A stretch of 64,000 nucleotides of DNA from Dictyostelium discoideum (lineage: Eukaryota): NCBI GenBank assembly GCA_000004695.1, contig CM000152.2, positions 448,001 through 512,000 on the forward strand, given 5' to 3'. Below the pieces are notes generated by a model. That model saw nothing but the letters and a program-made list of their open reading frames with translations. It was not told the DNA's origin and made no database searches. A program made the position numbers and the translations under genes. Positions 1 through 60,715 of the stretch are shown one piece after another (within the stretch, counting starts at the first letter, position 1; each line of letters begins with the position of its first letter).

Positions 1-653
1 TTTTTTTTTTTTTTTTTTTAACCTATTTTGCAGGTTCAAAATATTAACTATATCATATTTATGAAATAAATTTTAAAAAAAAAGATGGTGAGTTCCCAGC
101 TTTAACAGATACACAAAAGAAATGGATGAAAACAAGAATTAATGAAGCAAAGATTTTAAATAAAATTGTAAATGATGTTGAAACTCAAAGAAATAAAGTT
201 ATTGGTGCTATTAAGACTTTGGAGCAAAAAACTAACAAATCAATTCAAAACAAAAAACAAAAGAAGATTCAAAAAGATACTTTGTTTGAAAAGAAGAACG
301 AATAAATAATAATAATAAAATAAAAACAAAATAAAAAAAACAATTAAAATAAGCAGACACAGACATGAAAACAATAAAATAATAGGAATTTTTTTTTTTA
401 TTTTTTTTTTTTATTTTTTTAATAAAGAAATAACGATCATGATCACTATCATTCGATATTTTTTATTGTTATATTATTTTATTTTTTAGGATTTATTATA
501 TTATTTATTACTGGCATCATTTATATATATAGTTGATAAGAATGGAAACACAACTGAACGATTGAGGAAAAAAAAAAGACTTTATTAAAAAACCAACACC
601 AAAAACTTTGAAGAATTTAGTAGAATACCAAAAAACTAATTTCAACCCATTAA

Positions 654-693
<40 letters not shown>

Positions 694-707
694 GATGATG
701 ATGGTGT

Positions 708-3460
<2,753 letters not shown>

Positions 3461-3538
3461 CTAAAATAAAATTAAATATTAATATTAAAAAAAAAAAAAA
3501 AAAAAAAAATAAAATTATTATTATTTAATATAAATTAC

Positions 3539-3787
3539 CCATTTCTCTATTGAAAGCAAAAGAATCTTGATGAGATTTAACATATGAAGCGATTTCAATT
3601 TGATGAGAGAATCTATACTTTTTAATGATTTCTAAATTATATAATGCAGTATGAGCAACTTCTTTCCAAGATTTTGAAAGATGTTTTAGTGTGAATTTTC
3701 TAGATTGAGAACATGAATCACAATAAAATTCAAATCTACTATCAGATGGCCCAGGTAATACTGTACTACCAACTAAATCTTTCATTT
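3539..3787 (-). CDS. Exon 4 of the same gene: second copy of the Cys/His module (PGPSDSRFEFYCDSCSQSRKFTLKHLSKSWKEVAHTALYNLEIIKKYRFSHQIEIASYVKSH).
   Basis: ORF 3525..3785 frame. Acceptor TTATAG at ~3788 is phase-compatible with the exon 3 donor (C+AA=Gln). The GGTAATT donor coincides with the ORF stop. Confidence 0.5.
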
Positions 3788-3889
3788 CTATAATTTTTTT
3801 TCAATTAAATATACATATGTTAGGTAAAGTGGGAGAGAAAAAAAAAAGATTAAAAAAATATAAATAAAAATAAATAATTAAATACATAC

Positions 3890-4126
3890 GAAAATTAATC
3901 ATTTTTGAACAAGATTTACAAGTTAGAGAATGATTACTATCTTGATCAATATAACCTTCCCATTGTTCACTACCTTTCCAAGTTAACAAACCTCTTTCAT
4001 CTTCGTCGATTGAATCACCATGTCTATAATTTGACCACATACCTGAATCACGTGCAAATGAAATGAAAATTTTTCTATTATATGATAATGTTGCTGTCAT
4101 AATATTTTTCATTTTTGAATGTAAAA
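3890..4126 (-). CDS. Exon 3 of the same gene: ...RKIFISFARDSGMWSNYRHGDSIDEDERGLLTWKGSEQWEGYIDQDSNHSLTCKSCSKMINF.
   Basis: ORF 3801..4112 frame. Acceptor AAG|TTTTAC at ~4127 is in phase with the exon 2 donor. Donor GTATGT is at 3889..3884. Confidence 0.5.
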
Positions 4127-45037: not shown

Positions 45038-45143
45038 TATATATAAATATAATAAAAAAAAAATAATATTAATATTTATATTTTTAAAATATTAAAATAG
45101 AAAAATAAAGAAATAAAAATAAAAATAAAAATAAAAACTTACC

Positions 45144-45605
45144 AAATAGGTTTTTGATTTTCAAATGATGGTGGAATACCTTTTTCACATACCATACAAT
45201 ATGGAATATTACAAAGCTCTTCACGATATAGACTAACATGACTATTACTACTATTAACATAAATGACACCTTTTTCAGATGTTTTCATATAATTTAAATT
45301 TGATTCAGATAATTTAATATATTTTGATTTATTATTATTATTAATATTATTATTATTATTATTATTAATATTATTCTTTTTTATATATTCTTTTTTCTTT
45401 TTTACAATACAATTATATTTATTCTCTTCAGTATTATTTTTACTCTTTTTAATTTTTATTTGTTTATTTTCATTTTTATCATCATTATTATTTTGATTAT
45501 TAATATTATTTTGATTAATATTATTTTGATTATTATTAAAATTATTTTGACTATTATTACAATTATTATTTTTTTTAATATTATATTCATTAATATCATT
45601 GACAA

Positions 45606-45690
<85 letters not shown>

Positions 45691-45733
45691 ATTATTATTA
45701 TTACTATTATTATTATTGTTGTTGTTGTTGTTT

Positions 45734-45819
<86 letters not shown>

Positions 45820-46218
45820 ATTATTGTTATTATTATTTAAATTATTAATAAAATTTTTATTATTAATAATATTATCATTAAAGTTATTTATATTTTTCAT
45901 TGTATTGTTGATGAATATTTCATTTTGAAATATGTGTTGAGATAAGGGTGATAATGGTGGTGATAGGGATGATGGTGATAATGGTGGTGATGAGGTTATA
46001 TTATGGCCATTAAATAATCCATTATTTTGATTATTATTAAATTGATTATTGTTATATTGATTATTTATGAGATTGTTGTTATTATTTTTTATCATTTGAT
46101 TATCGTGGTGGTTATAACCAAAAGAAATTGAACAATTATTTTTTGAATGAATCATCAATAATTTTGATGATTCATTTGAAAGTGATAAAAGATTATTATT
46201 TTTTTGTTCAAATTTCAT
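45144..46218 (-). CDS. N-rich protein, exon 1 (ends ...LYREELCNIPYCMVCEKGIPPSFENQKPIW).
   Basis: 359-aa ORF 45139..46218. The GGTAAGT donor coincides with the ORF stop. Confidence 0.5.
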
Positions 46219-46867: not shown

Positions 46868-46965
46868 CGATAATATTTCAAAACAGTTTATTGGTTGTTG
46901 GTTATTTGTTAATGTGAAAATTCACCGTACAATATAAAAAAAAAAAAAAAAAAATTTTATATTAT

Positions 46966-47139
46966 CATATATATATATATATTATGAATAACATTTATTT
47001 ATTTGAATTTCCCAAATATTTAAGATAATTTTTTAGAATGTTCTAGAACATTCGAAGAATAAAAAAATTTTCGAAAGAAAAGTAAAAATTTCGAACCGGC
47101 ACAATGACTCGATCATTGTGTAAGGTCGAAAAACTGAAA
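46966..47139 (+). repeat. Left terminal inverted repeat of the DIRS-like element.
   Basis: Reverse-complement match to 47850-48022 with a single mismatch (gactcg vs gacgcg). It contains the palindromic core gaatgttctagaacattc. Confidence 0.75.
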
Positions 47140-47607
47140 GGTCTCATTATTACTACTGACTCAATTAAAGGTCCAGTTATTAATGCTAAAGAACAAAGAA
47201 GTGGTGTTGTTTCAATATTAGAATTAACATCGTTAGATGATACAAACTCTCAAGTATGCCCTGTTCGCCACCTTGCAACATACCTTAGAGCCTCTAAAGG
47301 AAAAAGAAAGCCCCATTCGGGTGACTCTGTCTTTATTAAGAATGAGGGTGAACCGCTTCTAGTTAATGATATTAACTCAATTGTACTATCAACACTCTCA
47401 AAGTCAGGTATTGATATTGTCAAGTTCAAATCTCACTCTACCCGTTCCGCTATGGCTTCTTTGCTGTTGTCCAATAACTTTTCGTTCCACGTTGTTAAGA
47501 AGATGGGTCGTTGGAAATCAAATGATACTGTAGATACCTTCTACGATAAAAGAATCATTGGTGAAAAATCTGGTGGTTTCTTAAATACTGTCGTCCAAAT
47601 TTCATAA
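47104..47607 (+). CDS. Tyrosine recombinase-like ORF (catalytic-domain fragment) of the DIRS-like element.
   Basis: 167-aa ORF. CPVRHLATYLRA, HSTRSAMASLLL and GRWKSNDTVDTFY give the R..H-x-x-R..[W]..Y arrangement typical of DIRS/Crypton-type YRs. The ATG lies inside the left TIR. Confidence 0.55.
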   Translation: MTRSLCKVEKLKGLIITTDSIKGPVINAKEQRSGVVSILELTSLDDTNSQVCPVRHLATYLRASKGKRKPHSGDSVFIKNEGEPLLVNDINSIVLSTLSKSGIDIVKFKSHSTRSAMASLLLSNNFSFHVVKKMGRWKSNDTVDTFYDKRIIGEKSGGFLNTVVQIS

Positions 47608-47692
47608 TATATATATATATATGATAATATAAATTAAAAATTTAATTTATTAAATTATATTTTATATTAAATATATATATATATATTAGTCC
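47608..47692 (+). repeat. Internal complementary region (ICR) of the DIRS-like element.
   Basis: 47640-47692 is the exact reverse complement of the right outer extension 48008-48060. 47608-47640 approximates the reverse complement of the left outer extension 46935-46965. Confidence 0.65.
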
Positions 47693-47849
47693 CATCCCAC
47701 CCGCCCTTAGTCGGAATTCCATAAATCAAATTGTTTTAGTTTTTTGTGCCACTATTTATACGTTTTTATTTTCTTAAAAATTTCGCAAAACTCAAAAAAA
47801 TAAGAGTTTTCGACCCTTCACAACTTTGTGCATAGTGTCGGTTCGGAAT

Positions 47850-48022
47850 TTTTCAGTTTTTCGACCTTACACAATGATCGCGTCATTGTGCCGGTTCGAA
47901 ATTTTTACTTTTCTTTCGAAAATTTTTTTATTCTTCGAATGTTCTAGAACATTCTAAAAAATTATCTTAAATATTTGGGAAATTCAAATAAATAAATGTT
48001 ATTCATAATATATATATATATA
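47850..48022 (-). repeat. Right terminal inverted repeat of the DIRS-like element.
   Basis: Inverted copy of 46966-47139. Confidence 0.75.
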
Positions 48023-48503
48023 TTTAATATAAAATATAATTTAATAAATTAAATTTTTAAATCTTGGCCCATTGTCAAAAAAAAAAAAAACCTCTCATAT
48101 TTTTTTTGGGGCCTCAATCGTTATTTTTCATATGAAAAAAGTTTTAAAAAATTAAAATTTTTTTTTCAAGATATTTTCTAAATAGTGCAAAAATTTTTTT
48201 TTTTTTTTTTTTTTCATTTTTTTTTTTTTTTTTTTTAAAATATTTTTCCGTGTCCTTGGGTTTAACAACTATTAAAAAAAAAAAAAAAATAAAATAATAT
48301 TCAAAAAAATGAACCACTTCCATAGTGATGCTGGCAAAATTAAAATATATTTTTTCTATCTTTGTTGCGCCATATTTCTAATAATTTTTAAAAATGATTA
48401 TTAATATCTAAATCAGCTCACTTGATTGGATGTGAGTGTCTTTTTGTTTCGTTTCATTTTTTAAATATTACTCTACACGATTATCAAGATGATTTTCTTT
48501 TTT

Positions 48504-50689: not shown

Positions 50690-51717
50690 CATTCAGTATT
50701 TATAATTTAATTGTTAAAAGAGAACCGGAACCAGAGAAATATGAAAAATTTTATCATGGAGTTTGTTGGACCATACCATTAATTTGTGTAATTGTTATGT
50801 TAGCAAAGAAAACAATTGAACCAGTTGGTAATTGGTGTTGGATTAGTGAGAAATATGTTGGATATAGATTTGGGTTATTTTACGGACCATTCTTTGCAAT
50901 TTGGATAATATCAGCAGTATTGGTTGGTTTAACATCCAGATACACCTATTCAGTGATTAGAAATAGTGTAAGTGATAACAAGGATAAACATATGACCTAC
51001 CAATTCAAATTAATCAATTATATCATTGTTTTCCTCCTATGTTGGGTATTTGCAATTGTTAATAGAATTTTAAATGGACTTGGTTATTACCCAACCCTTC
51101 CAAATATTCTACATACCTATTTCAGTGTATCACATGGCTTCTTTGCTTCGGTCACCTTTATTTATAATAATCCATTAATGTGGAGATATTGGGGTTCAAA
51201 AATATTTTTAATATTTGCAAAGTTTGGTTACTTTGTTGAACTACAAAGAAGATTAGATAGAAATAAAAATAATAATAATCCATCTCCAATTTTAAATTCA
51301 TATGCTGCAACAGTTTATCATTCTTCAACAATTGAATCATTATCATTACAACATAATAATGATATTTCAAATGATAATCAACAACAACAACAACAACAAC
51401 AAACACCCCAACAACCTCAACAACAATTTCAACAACAACAATCACCAACTGTAATTGAAATGCAAAATTTAAAACAGGATCAAAATATTGAAAATAATGA
51501 ACAAAATGAAAATTGTTATAATACAATTGATACAAATATAGAAATTAATACAAATAAATTAAATGATAATTCTTTTGAAATAACGCAACCTTCAAATGAT
51601 TTAAATACTATTGAAAATAATAATAACTATAATAATAATAATAATAACAATAATAATAATTCATTAGTAATAGAAAAGGAAAAAGATGAAAGAGAAAAAA
51701 AAGATAATAAGTTTTGA
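50690..51717 (+). CDS. cAR family GPCR, upstream copy, exon 2 (TM4-TM7 plus N/Q-rich tail).
   Basis: Acceptor TATACAG at 50688-50689 (G+CA=Ala). Contains [23 protein letters not shown]...GNWCWI...[10 protein letters not shown]...LTSRYTY...[13 protein letters not shown]...[26 protein letters not shown]... In frame with ORF 50797..51717. Confidence 0.8.
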
Positions 51718-56940: not shown

Positions 56941-57795
56941 CATTTAGTATTTATAATTTAATTGTAAAGAGAGAACCAGAGCCAGAGAAATTTGAAAAAT
57001 ATTATCATGTTTTTTGTTGGGTTGTACCATTTATAATGTCAGTGATAATGTTGTCAAAGGGTGTTATAGAGGTGACGGGTAATTGGTGTTGGATTGGTAA
57101 CACTTATGTTGGGTATAGATTTGGCTTGTTTTACGGACCATTTCTTGCAATTTGGTTCCTTGCTGCCGTGTTGGTTGGTTTGACTTCGAGGTATACCTAT
57201 AAGGTGATTAGAAGTAGTGTTAGTGATAATAAGGATAGACATATGACCTACCAATTCAAGTTAATCAATTATATAATTGTTTTCCTTTTATGTTGGGTGT
57301 TTGCTGTTATTAATCGTATTGTCAATGGCTTGAATATGTTTCCAGCTTGGGTTAGTATTCTTCACACCTATCTAAGTGTATCGCATGGTTTCTATGCTTC
57401 GGTGACTTTTATCTATAATAATCCATTGATGTGGAGATATTTAGCATCAATAATTTTAATTCCATTCACAAAGTTTGGTTATTTTGTTGAAACTCAACAA
57501 AGATTAGAAAAAAATAAAAATAATAATAATCATTCACCAGTTGGGTTATCAAATAATGCTCAAAATAATAATCATCATCATAATCATAATAATAATCACA
57601 ATAATAATCATAATAATCATAATAACAATAATAATAACAATAATAGTGATTTCGTTAATAATGACTCAAGTAATTATTATACTGCTTCAATGATTGAATC
57701 ATTCTCTGTTCAAAATGAAAATTCAAAATCTATAAATGGTGCTGATAATTTTAAACAAAATGGTGCAAGTCAACAAGATGATAAAGATTCTCCAA

Positions 57796-57878
<83 letters not shown>

Positions 57879-58079
57879 TATAATAATAAAGATATTGAAC
57901 CAATTGACAATTGTAATACTAATTCCATACCAATGGATAATATTGCCACTAGAATTGAAATACCTCCACAACATCCAACATTAACTCCTCAACAATCATT
58001 ACAAGAAATTAATTTAAATGATGACGACAACAAAATTAATACTCACCAAAGTAACAAAAAAAAAGATTCAAATGTTTAA
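56941..58079 (+). CDS. cAR family GPCR, downstream copy, exon 2 (TM4-7 plus N/H-rich tail).
   Basis: Acceptor TTTTACAG at 56939-56940. In frame with ORF 57036..58079. The core is ~85% identical to the upstream copy, and the C-tails diverge. Confidence 0.8.
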
Positions 58080-58381: not shown

Positions 58382-58464
58382 GCCGGCTTTGGCGCAATGG
58401 TAGCGCGATTGACTGTAGTAATATTAGTGATCAATCGGTTGCTAGTTCGAATCTGGCAAGCCGG
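58382..58464 (+). tRNA. tRNA-Tyr(GUA): tRNA-Tyr (anticodon GUA) with an 11-nt intron (58418..58428).
   Basis: Hand-folded cloverleaf: acceptor CCGGCTT/AAGCCGG, D-stem GCGC/GCGC with loop AATGGTA, anticodon stem ATTGA/TCAAT, loop CT-GTA-G then an intron after position 37, T-stem GCTAG/CTGGC with loop TTCGAAT, discriminator A, followed by TTTT. Confidence 0.85.
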
Positions 58465-58485
58465 ACTTTTCGTAAAAAAAATTAA

Positions 58486-58502
58486 AGTCGAGGGTTCGAT
58501 TC
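58486..58502 (+). promoter_or_regulatory. Putative external B box (GTCGAGGGTTCGATTCT) downstream of the tRNA gene.
   Basis: B-box-like GGTTCGA.TC about 25 nt after the tRNA terminator. This is known for Dictyostelium tRNA genes. Confidence 0.45.
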
Positions 58503-58509
58503 TTTAAAT

Positions 58510-60715
58510 ATCCAATTTGATTCTATCTCTCATGATAGTATTAAAAGAACATAAATTCATATTGGTATACCAATTAAATTAATAAATTTAATCCACAAGC
58601 TATTATCTGACTCACAAGCAAAAATTTCAATTAATGGTAAAACGACCAGAAAATTCGATATTAAAAGAGGTGTAAAACAAGGCGACCCAATCTCGGCCAC
58701 TTTATTTGTAATTGTAATTGAAATATTAGCAAGAACAATAAATGCAGACAATTCAATAATTGGATTACCAATTTCACCCAATCCACAAATTAAAATCAAA
58801 TTTACCCAATTTGCAGACGACTCTACAACATACAACATCAACTACGAACAACAACAACAATCAATCAAACATTTCCATAATTTCTGCGCTTCAACATCAT
58901 CATCATTAAATTTTGACAAAAGTGCAATAATAGAAATCAACCCCCACAAAATCACTGATAAACACATAATAAACAACATTCCACAATCAAAAAGAATACC
59001 AATTACCAAAAAAGATCAATCAGAAAGAGTTCTTGGCTATTTCTTTAATCATAATGGTTTACATAGGAAATTACCAGAAACAATGAAAACACTGATCAAA
59101 TCATTAGTACTATGGAAAACTAGTGGCACAACATTAAAAACAAAAACAACCATCATAAACACCTACTCACTATCACCAATAACATATTTATCATACCTTG
59201 AAGAATTTACAAAAGATGAAGAAATTCAAATTAATAAATTAATCTCATGGTTTATGAATTCTCCCGCAAATTCTGAATCACCAACTCTCAATACCAATTC
59301 CATTGAAAACAACACATCAACCATCCATTCACGTGCAAAAATACCTTTGATGTGTTATGATAGATCATTAAAACCATTAAAAGAAGGTGGTTGGGGTATG
59401 TGGAATATACAATTACGACAAGTTGCTCAAAAGATTTGGATATACAACAGATTTTTACAAATGCATAAATCTGCAAACAATTCAATATACATGATAAGTT
59501 GGATGGATCAAATCATCAACAAATCAATCTCTTCTCCATACCTTATAAAAATCAAAAAAGAATGGGAAAACTATGCAACTCAAATTGGACATCTAAAAGA
59601 TAAAGTTCAAACCCTACAACCAATATTAACAAAAAACCAAACCTCTCAAACATTAAACACAAATAATATTTCACTACCACCAACACTCAAAGAAATCTAC
59701 TCGAAAATACTCAACAATCACCAATGCAAATCAAAAGACTATATTGACAAGAAATATTCAGATCTACTTCTTAATTCGCACCAACAATCAATACAACTAT
59801 TATGGAAATACACTTACGACCAACTTTTTGTCAAAATTCAAAAATTAAAAGATCCAAAAGGCCGTGATACAATGCAAAGATTCCATGCTAGATTTCTTCC
59901 AATTAATCATCTACACAACAAAGTTTGCCCCATTTGCAACAATGAAATGAATAATGATCCCTATGGTCATTTGTTTTTCAATTGTCAACACACAATCAAC
60001 TTCATAAACCACGAAAAATTAAAATATTTTATATATAAAAATTGCAATGGAAACAAAAACTGGTCACTAACAAAAAACCAAACAACAAAATTATACACAC
60101 TCATTTATAAACCACAAACAAACAACAAAGCATTTAAACCAGATCCAACTATCAATATAAATTTTCATTTTGCAGAAAACGCACAATATAAAAAATACAG
60201 GTTCAACTGGAATTATATAAACACAAATCTTGATCTAGTCAGAACACATGCATATTGGAACATAATCTCATTAGTTATTCACCAAATATGGATATGGTTA
60301 TGCAAATCATTATTTGACATCAATATAACTCAATCAATTGACAATTGGAACAACCAAATAAACAACACAACACTAGATTATGATATATTAAAATCAAAAT
60401 GGCACAAGCTAATAAGATTGGAATATTCAAGAACATTATCAAACTTTAACCAATACTCAATTAAAAACAACCTCACAAAAACTCAAAAAGAAACCCAATG
60501 GTCCGAAACCATCAAAAAATTTAAAAAAGAATGGAGCATAAACACAAATGAACCAATTCCAACAATTACACCACCAATTAATTATTAATTGCCTAATCTA
60601 AAATAACATACCATTTTAAATTCACAAAAACTAAAAAACCTAAAATAAATAAATAAAAATAACATACTAATTGTATACTACAATAGTTTATTTATATCAA
60701 AAAAAAAAAAAAAAT
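58510..60715 (+). mobile_element. 5'-truncated tRNA-gene-targeted non-LTR retrotransposon (TRE3-like) with an oligo-A tail.
   Basis: It begins ~50 bp downstream of tRNA-Tyr and encodes the RT C-terminal half plus a CCHC knuckle. The A16 tract at ~60699-60714 ends it. The island is GC-richer than its surroundings. Confidence 0.65.
58555..60588 (+). CDS. Partial ORF2 of the retrotransposon (reverse transcriptase motifs from RGVKQGDPISATLF and FADDS onward, then a Cys/His knuckle CPICNNE...HLFFNCQH).
   Basis: Open frame from the stop at 58552-58554 through ORF 59083..60588. There is no N-terminal RT or endonuclease portion, so it is 5' truncated. Confidence 0.65.
   Translation: MHIGIPIKLINLIHKLLSDSQAKISINGKTTRKFDIKRGVKQGDPISATLFVIVIEILARTINADNSIIGLPISPNPQIKIKFTQFADDSTTYNINYEQQQQSIKHFHNFCASTSSSLNFDKSAIIEINPHKITDKHIINNIPQSKRIPITKKDQSERVLGYFFNHNGLHRKLPETMKTLIKSLVLWKTSGTTLKTKTTIINTYSLSPITYLSYLEEFTKDEEIQINKLISWFMNSPANSESPTLNTNSIENNTSTIHSRAKIPLMCYDRSLKPLKEGGWGMWNIQLRQVAQKIWIYNRFLQMHKSANNSIYMISWMDQIINKSISSPYLIKIKKEWENYATQIGHLKDKVQTLQPILTKNQTSQTLNTNNISLPPTLKEIYSKILNNHQCKSKDYIDKKYSDLLLNSHQQSIQLLWKYTYDQLFVKIQKLKDPKGRDTMQRFHARFLPINHLHNKVCPICNNEMNNDPYGHLFFNCQHTINFINHEKLKYFIYKNCNGNKNWSLTKNQTTKLYTLIYKPQTNNKAFKPDPTININFHFAENAQYKKYRFNWNYINTNLDLVRTHAYWNIISLVIHQIWIWLCKSLFDINITQSIDNWNNQINNTTLDYDILKSKWHKLIRLEYSRTLSNFNQYSIKNNLTKTQKETQWSETIKKFKKEWSINTNEPIPTITPPINY

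What the first reader, a model, noticed from the sequence alone, without database searches (positions are those of the whole stretch)
46935..48060. Miniature DIRS-like element: 174-bp TIRs, tyrosine-recombinase ORF, and an internal region exactly complementary to the sequence outside the right TIR
The 46966-47139 and 47850-48022 segments are reverse complements of each other with one mismatch. Between them lies a 167-aa ORF with the R..H-x-x-R..W..Y residues of DIRS/Crypton tyrosine recombinases. The 53 bp at 47640-47692 are a perfect reverse complement of 48008-48060, which lies beyond the right TIR. The stretch 47608-47640 resembles the reverse complement of the left outer flank. TIR plus ICR complementary to terminal extensions is the hallmark of DIRS-1 (4.8 kb, ~330-bp ITRs). 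This copy is only ~1.1 kb with 174-bp repeats, so it is either a deletion derivative or a distinct compact DIRS-family member. It could be a non-autonomous element mobilised in trans.
Basis: partly seen in the sequence, partly recalled or inferred. Interest (0 to 1): 0.8.

Follow-up and report, generated by a model that had tools for sequence, protein, structure and literature searches.

The report
Internally deleted DIRS-1 retrotransposon copy
This is an ordinary, broken copy of DIRS-1, the well-known Dictyostelium discoideum retrotransposon, that lost 3.7 kb from its middle where it sits, so it is not a new miniature mobile element.

Summary
The repeats and ORF are real, with coordinates off by 1-6 bases. 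They are the textbook features of DIRS-1 itself. The window is D. discoideum AX4 chromosome 3.

- **Element:** 46956-48060 (1105 bp). It consists of the first 184 bp of DIRS-1 joined to its last ~921 bp through a 3-bp AAA microhomology.
- **"174-bp TIR":** this is the left repeat cut by the deletion. The right repeat is complete (303 nt, 47721-48023).
- **Internal complementary region:** 47601-47688, made of 33 + 55 = 88 nt. This is exactly the published DIRS-1 ICR.
- **ORF:** the 167-aa ORF is a chimera of 11 LTR-derived codons plus the C-terminal 156 aa of the DIRS-1 tyrosine recombinase.
- **Same locus in other assemblies:** a near-identical D. discoideum assembly (probably AX2-214) has an intact 4824-bp DIRS-1 at the same nucleotide. 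A divergent strain has an empty site with no target duplication.

So the deletion arose in place after integration, or it is an error in the 2005 reference. Seven private substitutions clustered around the junction leave that possibility open. No evidence supports a separate compact family or mobilisation in trans. Verdict: already known, low interest.

The parts
46956..48060 (+). Whole element: DIRS-1 copy with a 3719-bp internal deletion (1105 bp)
   Evidence: The ends are defined three ways: the 33+55-nt ICR complementarity, the empty site in L003, and the identical ends of the full-length allele in L004.
46956..46966 (+). Left terminal extension (11 nt outside the inverted repeat, part of the 33 nt copied in the ICR)
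46967..47139 (+). Left ITR/LTR remnant: outer 173 of 303 nt, with the inner ~130 nt deleted
   Evidence: IR I1. The full-length ITR is 303 nt in L004. BLAST to the left ITRs of L001 and L002 gives 95-96%.
47137..47139 (+). Deletion junction: AAA microhomology shared by left-LTR position 182-184 and the YR coding sequence
47104..47607 (+). Chimeric 167-aa ORF: ATG plus 11 codons from the left LTR, fused in frame to the C-terminal 156 aa of the DIRS-1 tyrosine recombinase (HSTR...W...Y present; N-terminal SAM-like domain and the GLARSSDL box absent)
47601..47633 (+). Left ICR: 33 nt, exact reverse complement of the element's left end 46956-46988
   Evidence: the published 33-nt figure is in PMC7192593
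47634..47688 (+). Right ICR: 55 nt, exact reverse complement of the element's right end 48006-48060
   Evidence: the published 55-nt figure is in PMC7192593
47721..48023 (+). Right ITR/LTR, complete (303 nt)
   Evidence: Window 47721-48033 aligns to the reverse complement of the left ITR of L001 over 315 nt. It also aligns to the 303-nt arm of L004.
48024..48060 (+). Right terminal extension (37 nt), copied in the ICR; the host flank begins at 48061

Best explanation
The feature is one copy of the canonical Dictyostelium discoideum retrotransposon DIRS-1, sitting on a chromosome arm of AX4 chromosome 3.

How it got there: it integrated as a full-length 4.8-kb element by the normal DIRS route. 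In that route, RNA is copied to cDNA, the ends are rebuilt on the 88-nt internal complementary region, a circle forms, and the tyrosine recombinase inserts it without a target duplication.

What happened next: after integration, in the AX3/AX4 lineage, 3719 bp were lost between position 184 of the left LTR and the middle of the recombinase ORF. The join uses a 3-bp AAA microhomology, which points to end-joining or replication slippage.

What remains: 184 bp of the left end, the last 156 codons of the recombinase, the ICR, and a complete right LTR.

What it can do: it lacks GAG, RT/RNase H/methyltransferase, half of the recombinase, and the inner part of the left LTR, where published work places the start of the sense transcript. 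It is therefore most likely an immobile relic. At most, its intact right LTR may still drive antisense transcription.

Shown here: the identity, the boundaries, the deletion end-points, the in-place origin, and the absence of a target duplication. Inferred: the repair mechanism, the loss of the transcription start, and immobility.
For: - **Organism:** a neighbouring 534-aa ORF is 100% identical to AX4 XP_642217, on a 6,357,299-bp record.
- **ORF:** it is 79-96% identical to more than 100 D. discoideum DIRS-1 recombinase fragments. It diverges from them only in its first 11 aa.
- **DNA match to other DIRS-1 copies:** window 46956-47139 matches the left end and 47137-48060 matches the last ~924 bp of full-length DIRS-1 copies at 93-97%.
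- **Full-length allele:** L004 (GCA_054883475.1, which has no clean substitutions against the window across ~10 kb of flank) carries a 4824-bp DIRS-1 at the same nucleotide with identical flanks. That copy has intact GAG, RT/RH/Dam-MT and YR ORFs and 303-nt ITRs that are 100% complementary. The window copy equals it minus 3719 bp.
- **Empty site:** L003 (a strain about 10% diverged) reads ...AAAT|ATCTTGG..., so the ends fall at 46956 and 48060 with no duplication.
- **Junction:** the AAA microhomology is visible at the join.
- **ICR:** 33+55 nt exactly as published (PMC7192593).
[quoted passage not shown] It also reports that the sense RNA contains little of the left LTR and that the right LTR has promoter activity (PMC3950715).
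Against: - The AX4 copy differs from the allelic full-length copy at 7 positions, all between 47109 and 47482, that is, close to the junction. About 10 kb of flank has no clean substitution.
- AX2 and AX4 diverged only decades ago, so this pattern is odd for a plain deletion. It fits either mutagenic repair or a poor or chimeric read in the reference.
- The identity of L004 as AX2-214 is inferred from near-identity, contig sizes and PMC12745789. It is not read from the record.
- I could not search the whole AX4 genome for a second copy of the junction.
Confidence: 0.6

Rival explanations
1. The deletion is an artefact of the 2005 Sanger reference assembly of AX4. On this view, living AX4 carries the same full-length DIRS-1 as the sister assembly. 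The 1.1-kb version arose from a chimeric or low-quality read, or from repeat handling during assembly.
For: - Seven substitutions private to the window cluster within 30 bp to the left and 343 bp to the right of the junction. None lie in the other 731 bp of the element, and none are clean substitutions in ~10 kb of flank.
- The amino-acid states they create (GKRKP, PLLV, NNFSF) occur in none of 114 relatives.
- DIRS-1 is a high-copy repeat that is hard to assemble from short clones.
- The exact 167-aa product is on record nowhere.
Against: - The junction carries only 3 bp of homology, whereas assembly collapses normally occur across long repeats.
- The changes are clean substitutions that keep the reading frame open, not the indels typical of poor reads.
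- Finished reference sequence is usually covered by several reads.
- The absence is uninformative, because AX4 transposon ORFs are mostly not annotated.
Confidence: 0.3
2. The short form is ancestral in the NC4 lineage. On this view, the full-length copy in the sister assembly was restored by gene conversion from another full-length DIRS-1, which also erased the seven variants.
For: One conversion tract spanning 47109-47482 plus the gap would explain both the 3.7-kb difference and all seven substitutions.
Against: - An element old enough to gain 7 changes in 374 bp should also show changes elsewhere. Yet the other 731 bp are identical between the alleles, and the two ITR arms in the window differ only at 47109.
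- It requires a 3.7-kb fill-in within a few decades of laboratory culture.
Confidence: 0.05
3. This is a genuine miniature, non-autonomous DIRS element, either a distinct compact family or a deletion derivative that was itself retrotransposed in trans, for example from a truncated cDNA that primed ectopically on the right LTR.
For: - The ends, the ICR and the right LTR are all intact, and there is no target duplication.
- DIRS-1 reverse transcriptase has been shown to act in trans on an engineered truncated element (PMC7192593).
- The structure is what fold-back priming of a truncated cDNA at an AAA microhomology would produce (my inference).
Against: - A full-length DIRS-1 sits at exactly the same nucleotide, with identical flanks, in the sister assembly. 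Independent insertion at one nucleotide is very unlikely.
- None of 114 related proteins carries the junction peptide ...CKVEKLKG....
- The window holds no other copy.
- The repeats are 94-96% identical to ordinary DIRS-1 ITRs, not a separate family.
- The inner left LTR, where the sense RNA is reported to start, is missing.
Confidence: 0.03

Closest known systems
DIRS-1 (Tdd-1) of Dictyostelium discoideum, canonical 4.8-kb element (Cappello, Cohen and Lodish model, as summarised in PMC7192593 and PMC3950715)
   Same: - The nucleotide sequence is 93-97% identical to other copies and 99.4% identical to the allelic full-length copy.
- The termini are the same.
- The 88-nt ICR has the same 33+55 structure.
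- The right LTR, the recombinase C-terminus and the lack of a target duplication also match.
   Different: It lacks 3719 bp. The missing part covers the inner ~130 nt of the left LTR, GAG, RT/RNase H/methyltransferase and the N-terminal half of the recombinase.
The roughly 200-300 DIRS-1 fragments already reported in the D. discoideum genome (PMC3950715)
   Same: It is one more defective DIRS-1 copy.
   Different: It is solitary on a chromosome arm rather than nested in a centromeric DIRS cluster. Both termini are intact, and it has a datable full-length allele in a sister laboratory strain.
trDIRS-1bsr*, the engineered truncated DIRS-1 of Malicki et al. 2020 (PMC7192593)
   Same: Both are internally truncated DIRS-1 elements that keep both LTR ends and the ICR and lack GAG and RT.
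   Different: The engineered element keeps the whole left LTR and its promoter. It was reverse-transcribed in trans but gave no scored retrotransposition. The natural copy here has lost the inner left LTR.
Cryptons (tyrosine-recombinase DNA transposons)
   Same: Both encode a tyrosine-recombinase domain, and neither makes a classical target duplication of the kind DDE transposases produce.
   Different: Cryptons have no long inverted terminal repeats and no ICR, and their recombinase is not DIRS-1's. The sequence here is DIRS-1 at the nucleotide level.

Membership tests
DIRS-1 (DIRS1-like superfamily, order DIRS) | Inverted terminal repeats of about 300 nt with short non-repeated terminal extensions | tested here: met
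   The right ITR is complete at 303 nt (47721-48023) and the left is truncated to 173 nt. The extensions are 11 and 37 nt.
DIRS-1 (DIRS1-like superfamily, order DIRS) | Internal complementary region that joins the complements of the left and right termini (33 + 55 = 88 nt in DIRS-1), upstream of the right ITR | tested here: met
   47601-47633 and 47634-47688 are exact, adjacent complements of 46956-46988 and 48006-48060. The figures match PMC7192593.
DIRS-1 (DIRS1-like superfamily, order DIRS) | Tyrosine recombinase ORF | tested here: inconclusive
   Only the C-terminal 156 aa are present. They give Phage_integrase E=3.7e-9 with the HSTR motif, at 79-96% identity to DIRS-1 YR. The N-terminal SAM-like domain seen in the full-length allele is deleted.
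DIRS-1 (DIRS1-like superfamily, order DIRS) | GAG-like ORF1 and RT / RNase H / methyltransferase ORF | tested here: not met
   These are absent from the window copy. They are present and intact in the allelic full-length copy: a 335-aa ORF1, plus RVT_1, RT_RNaseH and Dam. The absence is therefore secondary loss and does not argue against membership.
DIRS-1 (DIRS1-like superfamily, order DIRS) | Integration without target-site duplication | tested here: met
   The empty allele reads AAAT|ATCTTGG and the filled allele reads AAAT[TTTATATT...TTTTTAA]ATCTTGG. The proposed 3-bp homology between the circle junction and the target (PMC3266345) could not be confirmed at this site.
DIRS-1 (DIRS1-like superfamily, order DIRS) | Nucleotide-level identity to DIRS-1 copies | tested here: met
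   Identity is 93-97% to copies in L001 and L002 over both retained parts, and 1098 of 1105 positions to the allelic copy in L004.
Separate miniature, non-autonomous DIRS family (analogous to MITE, TRIM or LARD) | Several non-allelic copies sharing the same short internal structure or junction | tested here: not met
   The window holds no second copy. No junction peptide appears among 114 related proteins from at least eight assemblies. The allelic site holds a full-length element. A whole-genome nucleotide search of AX4 was not possible with these tools.
Crypton | Tyrosine-recombinase DNA transposon without RT, long ITRs or an ICR | tested here: not met
   ITRs and an ICR are present, and the allelic copy encodes RT.

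The most novel reading that the evidence does not exclude
The deletion and its seven clustered substitutions may be real and may have arisen within the few decades that separate the AX3/AX4 and AX2 laboratory lineages. That would make this locus a dated, natural example of mutagenic, microhomology-mediated repair inside a potentially active chromosome-arm DIRS-1. It would also mean the AX2 lineage keeps an intact, perfectly repeated master copy that AX4 has lost.
Probability: 0.3. Interest if true: 0.2.

Novelty: already known. Interest (0 to 1): 0.08.

Why it matters
It matters little for biology. DIRS-1, its inverted repeats and its 88-nt ICR were described in the 1980s, and hundreds of defective copies are known. 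Three practical points follow:
- The reference AX4 sequence and a long-read assembly that is probably AX2 differ by 3.7 kb at this chromosome-arm DIRS-1. This bears on annotation, on lists of strain differences, and on the question of which DIRS-1 copies are potentially active.
- The full-length allele in the AX2-like assembly has intact ORFs and 100% identical ITRs, so it is a candidate active copy.
- The cluster of seven substitutions at the junction flags a possible local error in the reference.

Tried and rejected
- **Exact-product look-ups.** Look-ups of the 167-aa ORF, of two neighbouring ORFs and of the AX4 protein P0115 found nothing on record. The locus was reached through strain orthologues instead.
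- **Arginine check.** A phmmer search of the full-length DIRS-1 recombinase against PDB sequences gave no hit. The position of the first catalytic arginine therefore rests on the GLARSSDL motif only. Pfam aligns only profile positions 85-166 even in the full-length protein.
- **Truncated-cDNA model.** I considered that the element was made short during retrotransposition, by a truncated cDNA folding back and priming at the AAA in the right LTR. This fits the anatomy, but I rejected it because a full-length allele sits at the identical site.
- **Apparent recurrent breakpoint.** A breakpoint seemed to recur at query position 238 in L002. I rejected it as an alignment edge effect.
- **Three-bp junction model.** I tested the circle-junction/target homology model (PMC3266345). 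No trinucleotide reproduces both observed junctions from the empty allele, but that allele is about 10% diverged, so I left this open.
- **Literature on deletions.** A search for DIRS-1 'internal deletion' returned nothing specific.
- **Six-frame Pfam scan.** The scan of 58470-59300 failed on stop codons.

Full report

Yes, with small coordinate corrections.
- The inverted repeat has arms at 46967-47139 and 47851-48023. It is 173 nt long with a single mismatch at 47109.
- All other inverted repeats in the surrounding 4 kb are A/T low-complexity matches at 71-81%. This one is not a chance match.
- A 167-aa ORF lies at 47104-47607 (+). It hits Pfam Phage_integrase at E=3.7e-9, but only over profile positions 82-166 of 172.
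The maximal exact match is 55 nt (48006-48060 with 47634-47688).
- Immediately to its left, 47601-47633 is an exact 33-nt reverse complement of 46956-46988.
- So an 88-nt internal block (47601-47688) is the complement of the right end joined to the left end.

**2. What organism, and what element?**

A neighbouring 534-aa ORF is 100% identical to D. discoideum AX4 XP_642217, on a 6,357,299-bp record. The window is therefore AX4 chromosome 3, which fits its 12-32% G+C.

The 167-aa ORF finds 114 relatives. All are from D. discoideum and its sister species, at 49-96% identity over the aligned stretch. Some sit on gene calls that also carry RT and RNase H domains. In the alignment, the ORF matches the DIRS-1 tyrosine recombinase from residue 12 (KGLIITTDSIKG...) to the stop. 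Its first 11 residues (MTRSLCKVEKL) match nothing.

At the DNA level there are two matches:
- Window 46956-47139 aligns to the left end of full-length DIRS-1 copies, for example L001 4364-4540, at 95.5%.
- Window 47137-48060 aligns colinearly to their last ~924 bp, for example L001 8265-9187 at 93.3% and L002 7006-7931 at 97.0%.

The window's right end, 47721-48033, aligns to the reverse complement of a whole left ITR over 315 nt. So the right repeat is complete and only the left one is short.

The literature gives the canonical DIRS-1 as 4814 bp. Its ICR is 88 bp: the first 33 bases complement the 5' end of the left LTR and the remaining 55 complement the 3' end of the right LTR (PMC7192593). 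These are exactly the numbers measured here. The feature is DIRS-1 itself.

**3. Boundaries, insertion and deletion, from alleles in other strains**

The orthologous locus of a strain about 10% diverged (L003, GCA_054859385.1) is colinear with the window on both sides. It lacks 46950-48060.
- The empty site reads ...CAATAT-A14-T|ATCTTGGCCC....
- The filled site reads ...A19-T[TTTATATTATCAT...AAATTTTTAA]ATCTTGGCCC....
- The element is therefore 46956-48060, exactly the ends predicted by the ICR, and there is no target-site duplication.

The orthologous locus of a near-identical assembly (L004, GCA_054883475.1, chromosome record CM142509.1) carries 3719 extra bases between window positions 47139 and 47140. 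In that assembly a 4824-bp DIRS-1 sits at the same nucleotide with identical flanks. That copy has:
- a 335-aa ORF1;
- a 632-aa ORF with RVT_1, RT_RNaseH and Dam domains;
- a recombinase with an N-terminal SAM-like domain;
- 303-nt ITRs that are 100% complementary;
- the same 33+55 ICR.

The window copy equals this element minus positions 185-3903. The left side reads ...GGTCGAAAAACTGAAA|AATTCC..., the right side reads ...GGTCGTTCAAA|GGTCTC..., and the product reads ...CTGAAAGGTCTC.... That is a 3-bp AAA microhomology.

PMC12745789 reports long-read assemblies of AX2-214, CR116C and OT3A as the three D. discoideum strains, and states that AX2 and AX4 are about 99.5% identical. From the near-identity and the contig sizes, L004 is most likely AX2-214 and L003 CR116C. 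This is an inference, not read from the records.

**4. How it works**

The repeats and the ICR are the machinery of normal DIRS-1 replication. According to the literature:
- The sense RNA starts near the inner end of the left LTR.
- The cDNA regains the left LTR by copying the right LTR.
- The terminal extensions are rebuilt on the ICR.
- A circle forms and is inserted by the recombinase.
- The ICR has been shown experimentally to be essential (PMC7192593; PMC3950715; PMC3266345).

This copy went through that process once, as a full-length element. It then lost its middle. It now lacks GAG, RT/RH/MT, the recombinase N-terminal half (including, by motif, the box-I arginine in GLARSSDL) and the inner ~130 nt of the left LTR.

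I infer that it is immobile. Its intact right LTR, which has promoter activity in the literature, could still give antisense RNA.

The 167-aa ORF is a by-product of the join. An ATG in the LTR happens to be in frame with the recombinase tail.

**5. An oddity, and the main rival**

The window copy differs from the allelic full-length copy at seven positions: 47109, 47303, 47358, 47360, 47461, 47479 and 47482.
- All seven lie near the junction. None lie in the remaining 731 bp of the element.
- About 10 kb of flank shows only low-complexity indels and a few substitutions next to those indels.
- The amino-acid states they create are found in none of the 114 relatives.

For two laboratory lineages separated by decades this is anomalous. 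Either the deletion was made by an error-prone repair process, or the 2005 Sanger reference is locally wrong, in which case the deletion itself may be an artefact. I put about 0.6 on a real deletion in place and 0.3 on an artefact. Only raw reads or a PCR can settle this.

Two further rivals rank low:
- **Gene-conversion fill-in in AX2.** The rest of the element shows no ageing, which argues against it.
- **A mobilised mini-element.** The full-length allele at the same nucleotide and the absence of the junction peptide in any relative argue against it.

**6. Comparison, novelty and verdict**

The feature is a member of DIRS-1 by sequence, termini, ICR and insertion mode. The missing ORFs are a secondary loss. 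It is one of the 200-300 DIRS-1 fragments already reported (PMC3950715).

It resembles the engineered trDIRS-1 of PMC7192593, but unlike that construct it lacks the inner left LTR. It is neither a Crypton nor a separate compact family.

Novelty: already known. Interest: low (0.08). The only points worth a note are the AX4 versus AX2-like structural difference, the apparently intact chromosome-arm DIRS-1 in the AX2-like assembly, and the possible local reference error.

Noticed in passing
window 47109-47482: Seven substitutions separate the AX4 copy from the allelic full-length DIRS-1. All cluster around the deletion junction and most change the base to T. About 10 kb of flank has none. The cause is either mutagenic repair or a local error in the reference sequence.
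   Followed up: partly
L004 16339-21162 (GCA_054883475.1 CM142509.1, probably AX2-214): This is a solitary chromosome-arm DIRS-1 of 4824 bp. It has intact GAG, RT/RH/MT and YR ORFs and 303-nt ITRs that are 100% complementary, which makes it a candidate active copy. It is absent from the divergent strain in L003.
   Followed up: partly
window 58383-60588: A tRNA-Thr(TGT) gene lies at 58383-58466 (+). Downstream, at 59083-60588, is a 501-aa ORF with no Pfam hit. The colinear stretch in L004 carries a gene call with an RVT_1 domain. This is probably a 5'-truncated, tRNA-gene-targeted non-LTR retrotransposon of the TRE type.
   Followed up: partly
window 50797-51717 and 57036-58079: Two paralogous ORFs resembling cAMP-receptor-like (Dicty_CAR) GPCRs lie about 6 kb apart on the same strand (the Pfam hit was checked on the first only). 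Their N-terminal halves are very similar.
   Followed up: no
L002 8921 (GCA_054883475.1 JBTAPE010000037.1): In a DIRS cluster, the right terminus of one DIRS-1 abuts an inverted recombinase fragment of another. This is an example of DIRS-1 nested in DIRS-1.
   Followed up: no
window 45139-46218 (-): A 359-aa ORF consists largely of poly-asparagine runs, which is typical of D. discoideum low-complexity coding sequence. It accounts for the many direct-repeat families reported around 45500-46100.
   Followed up: no
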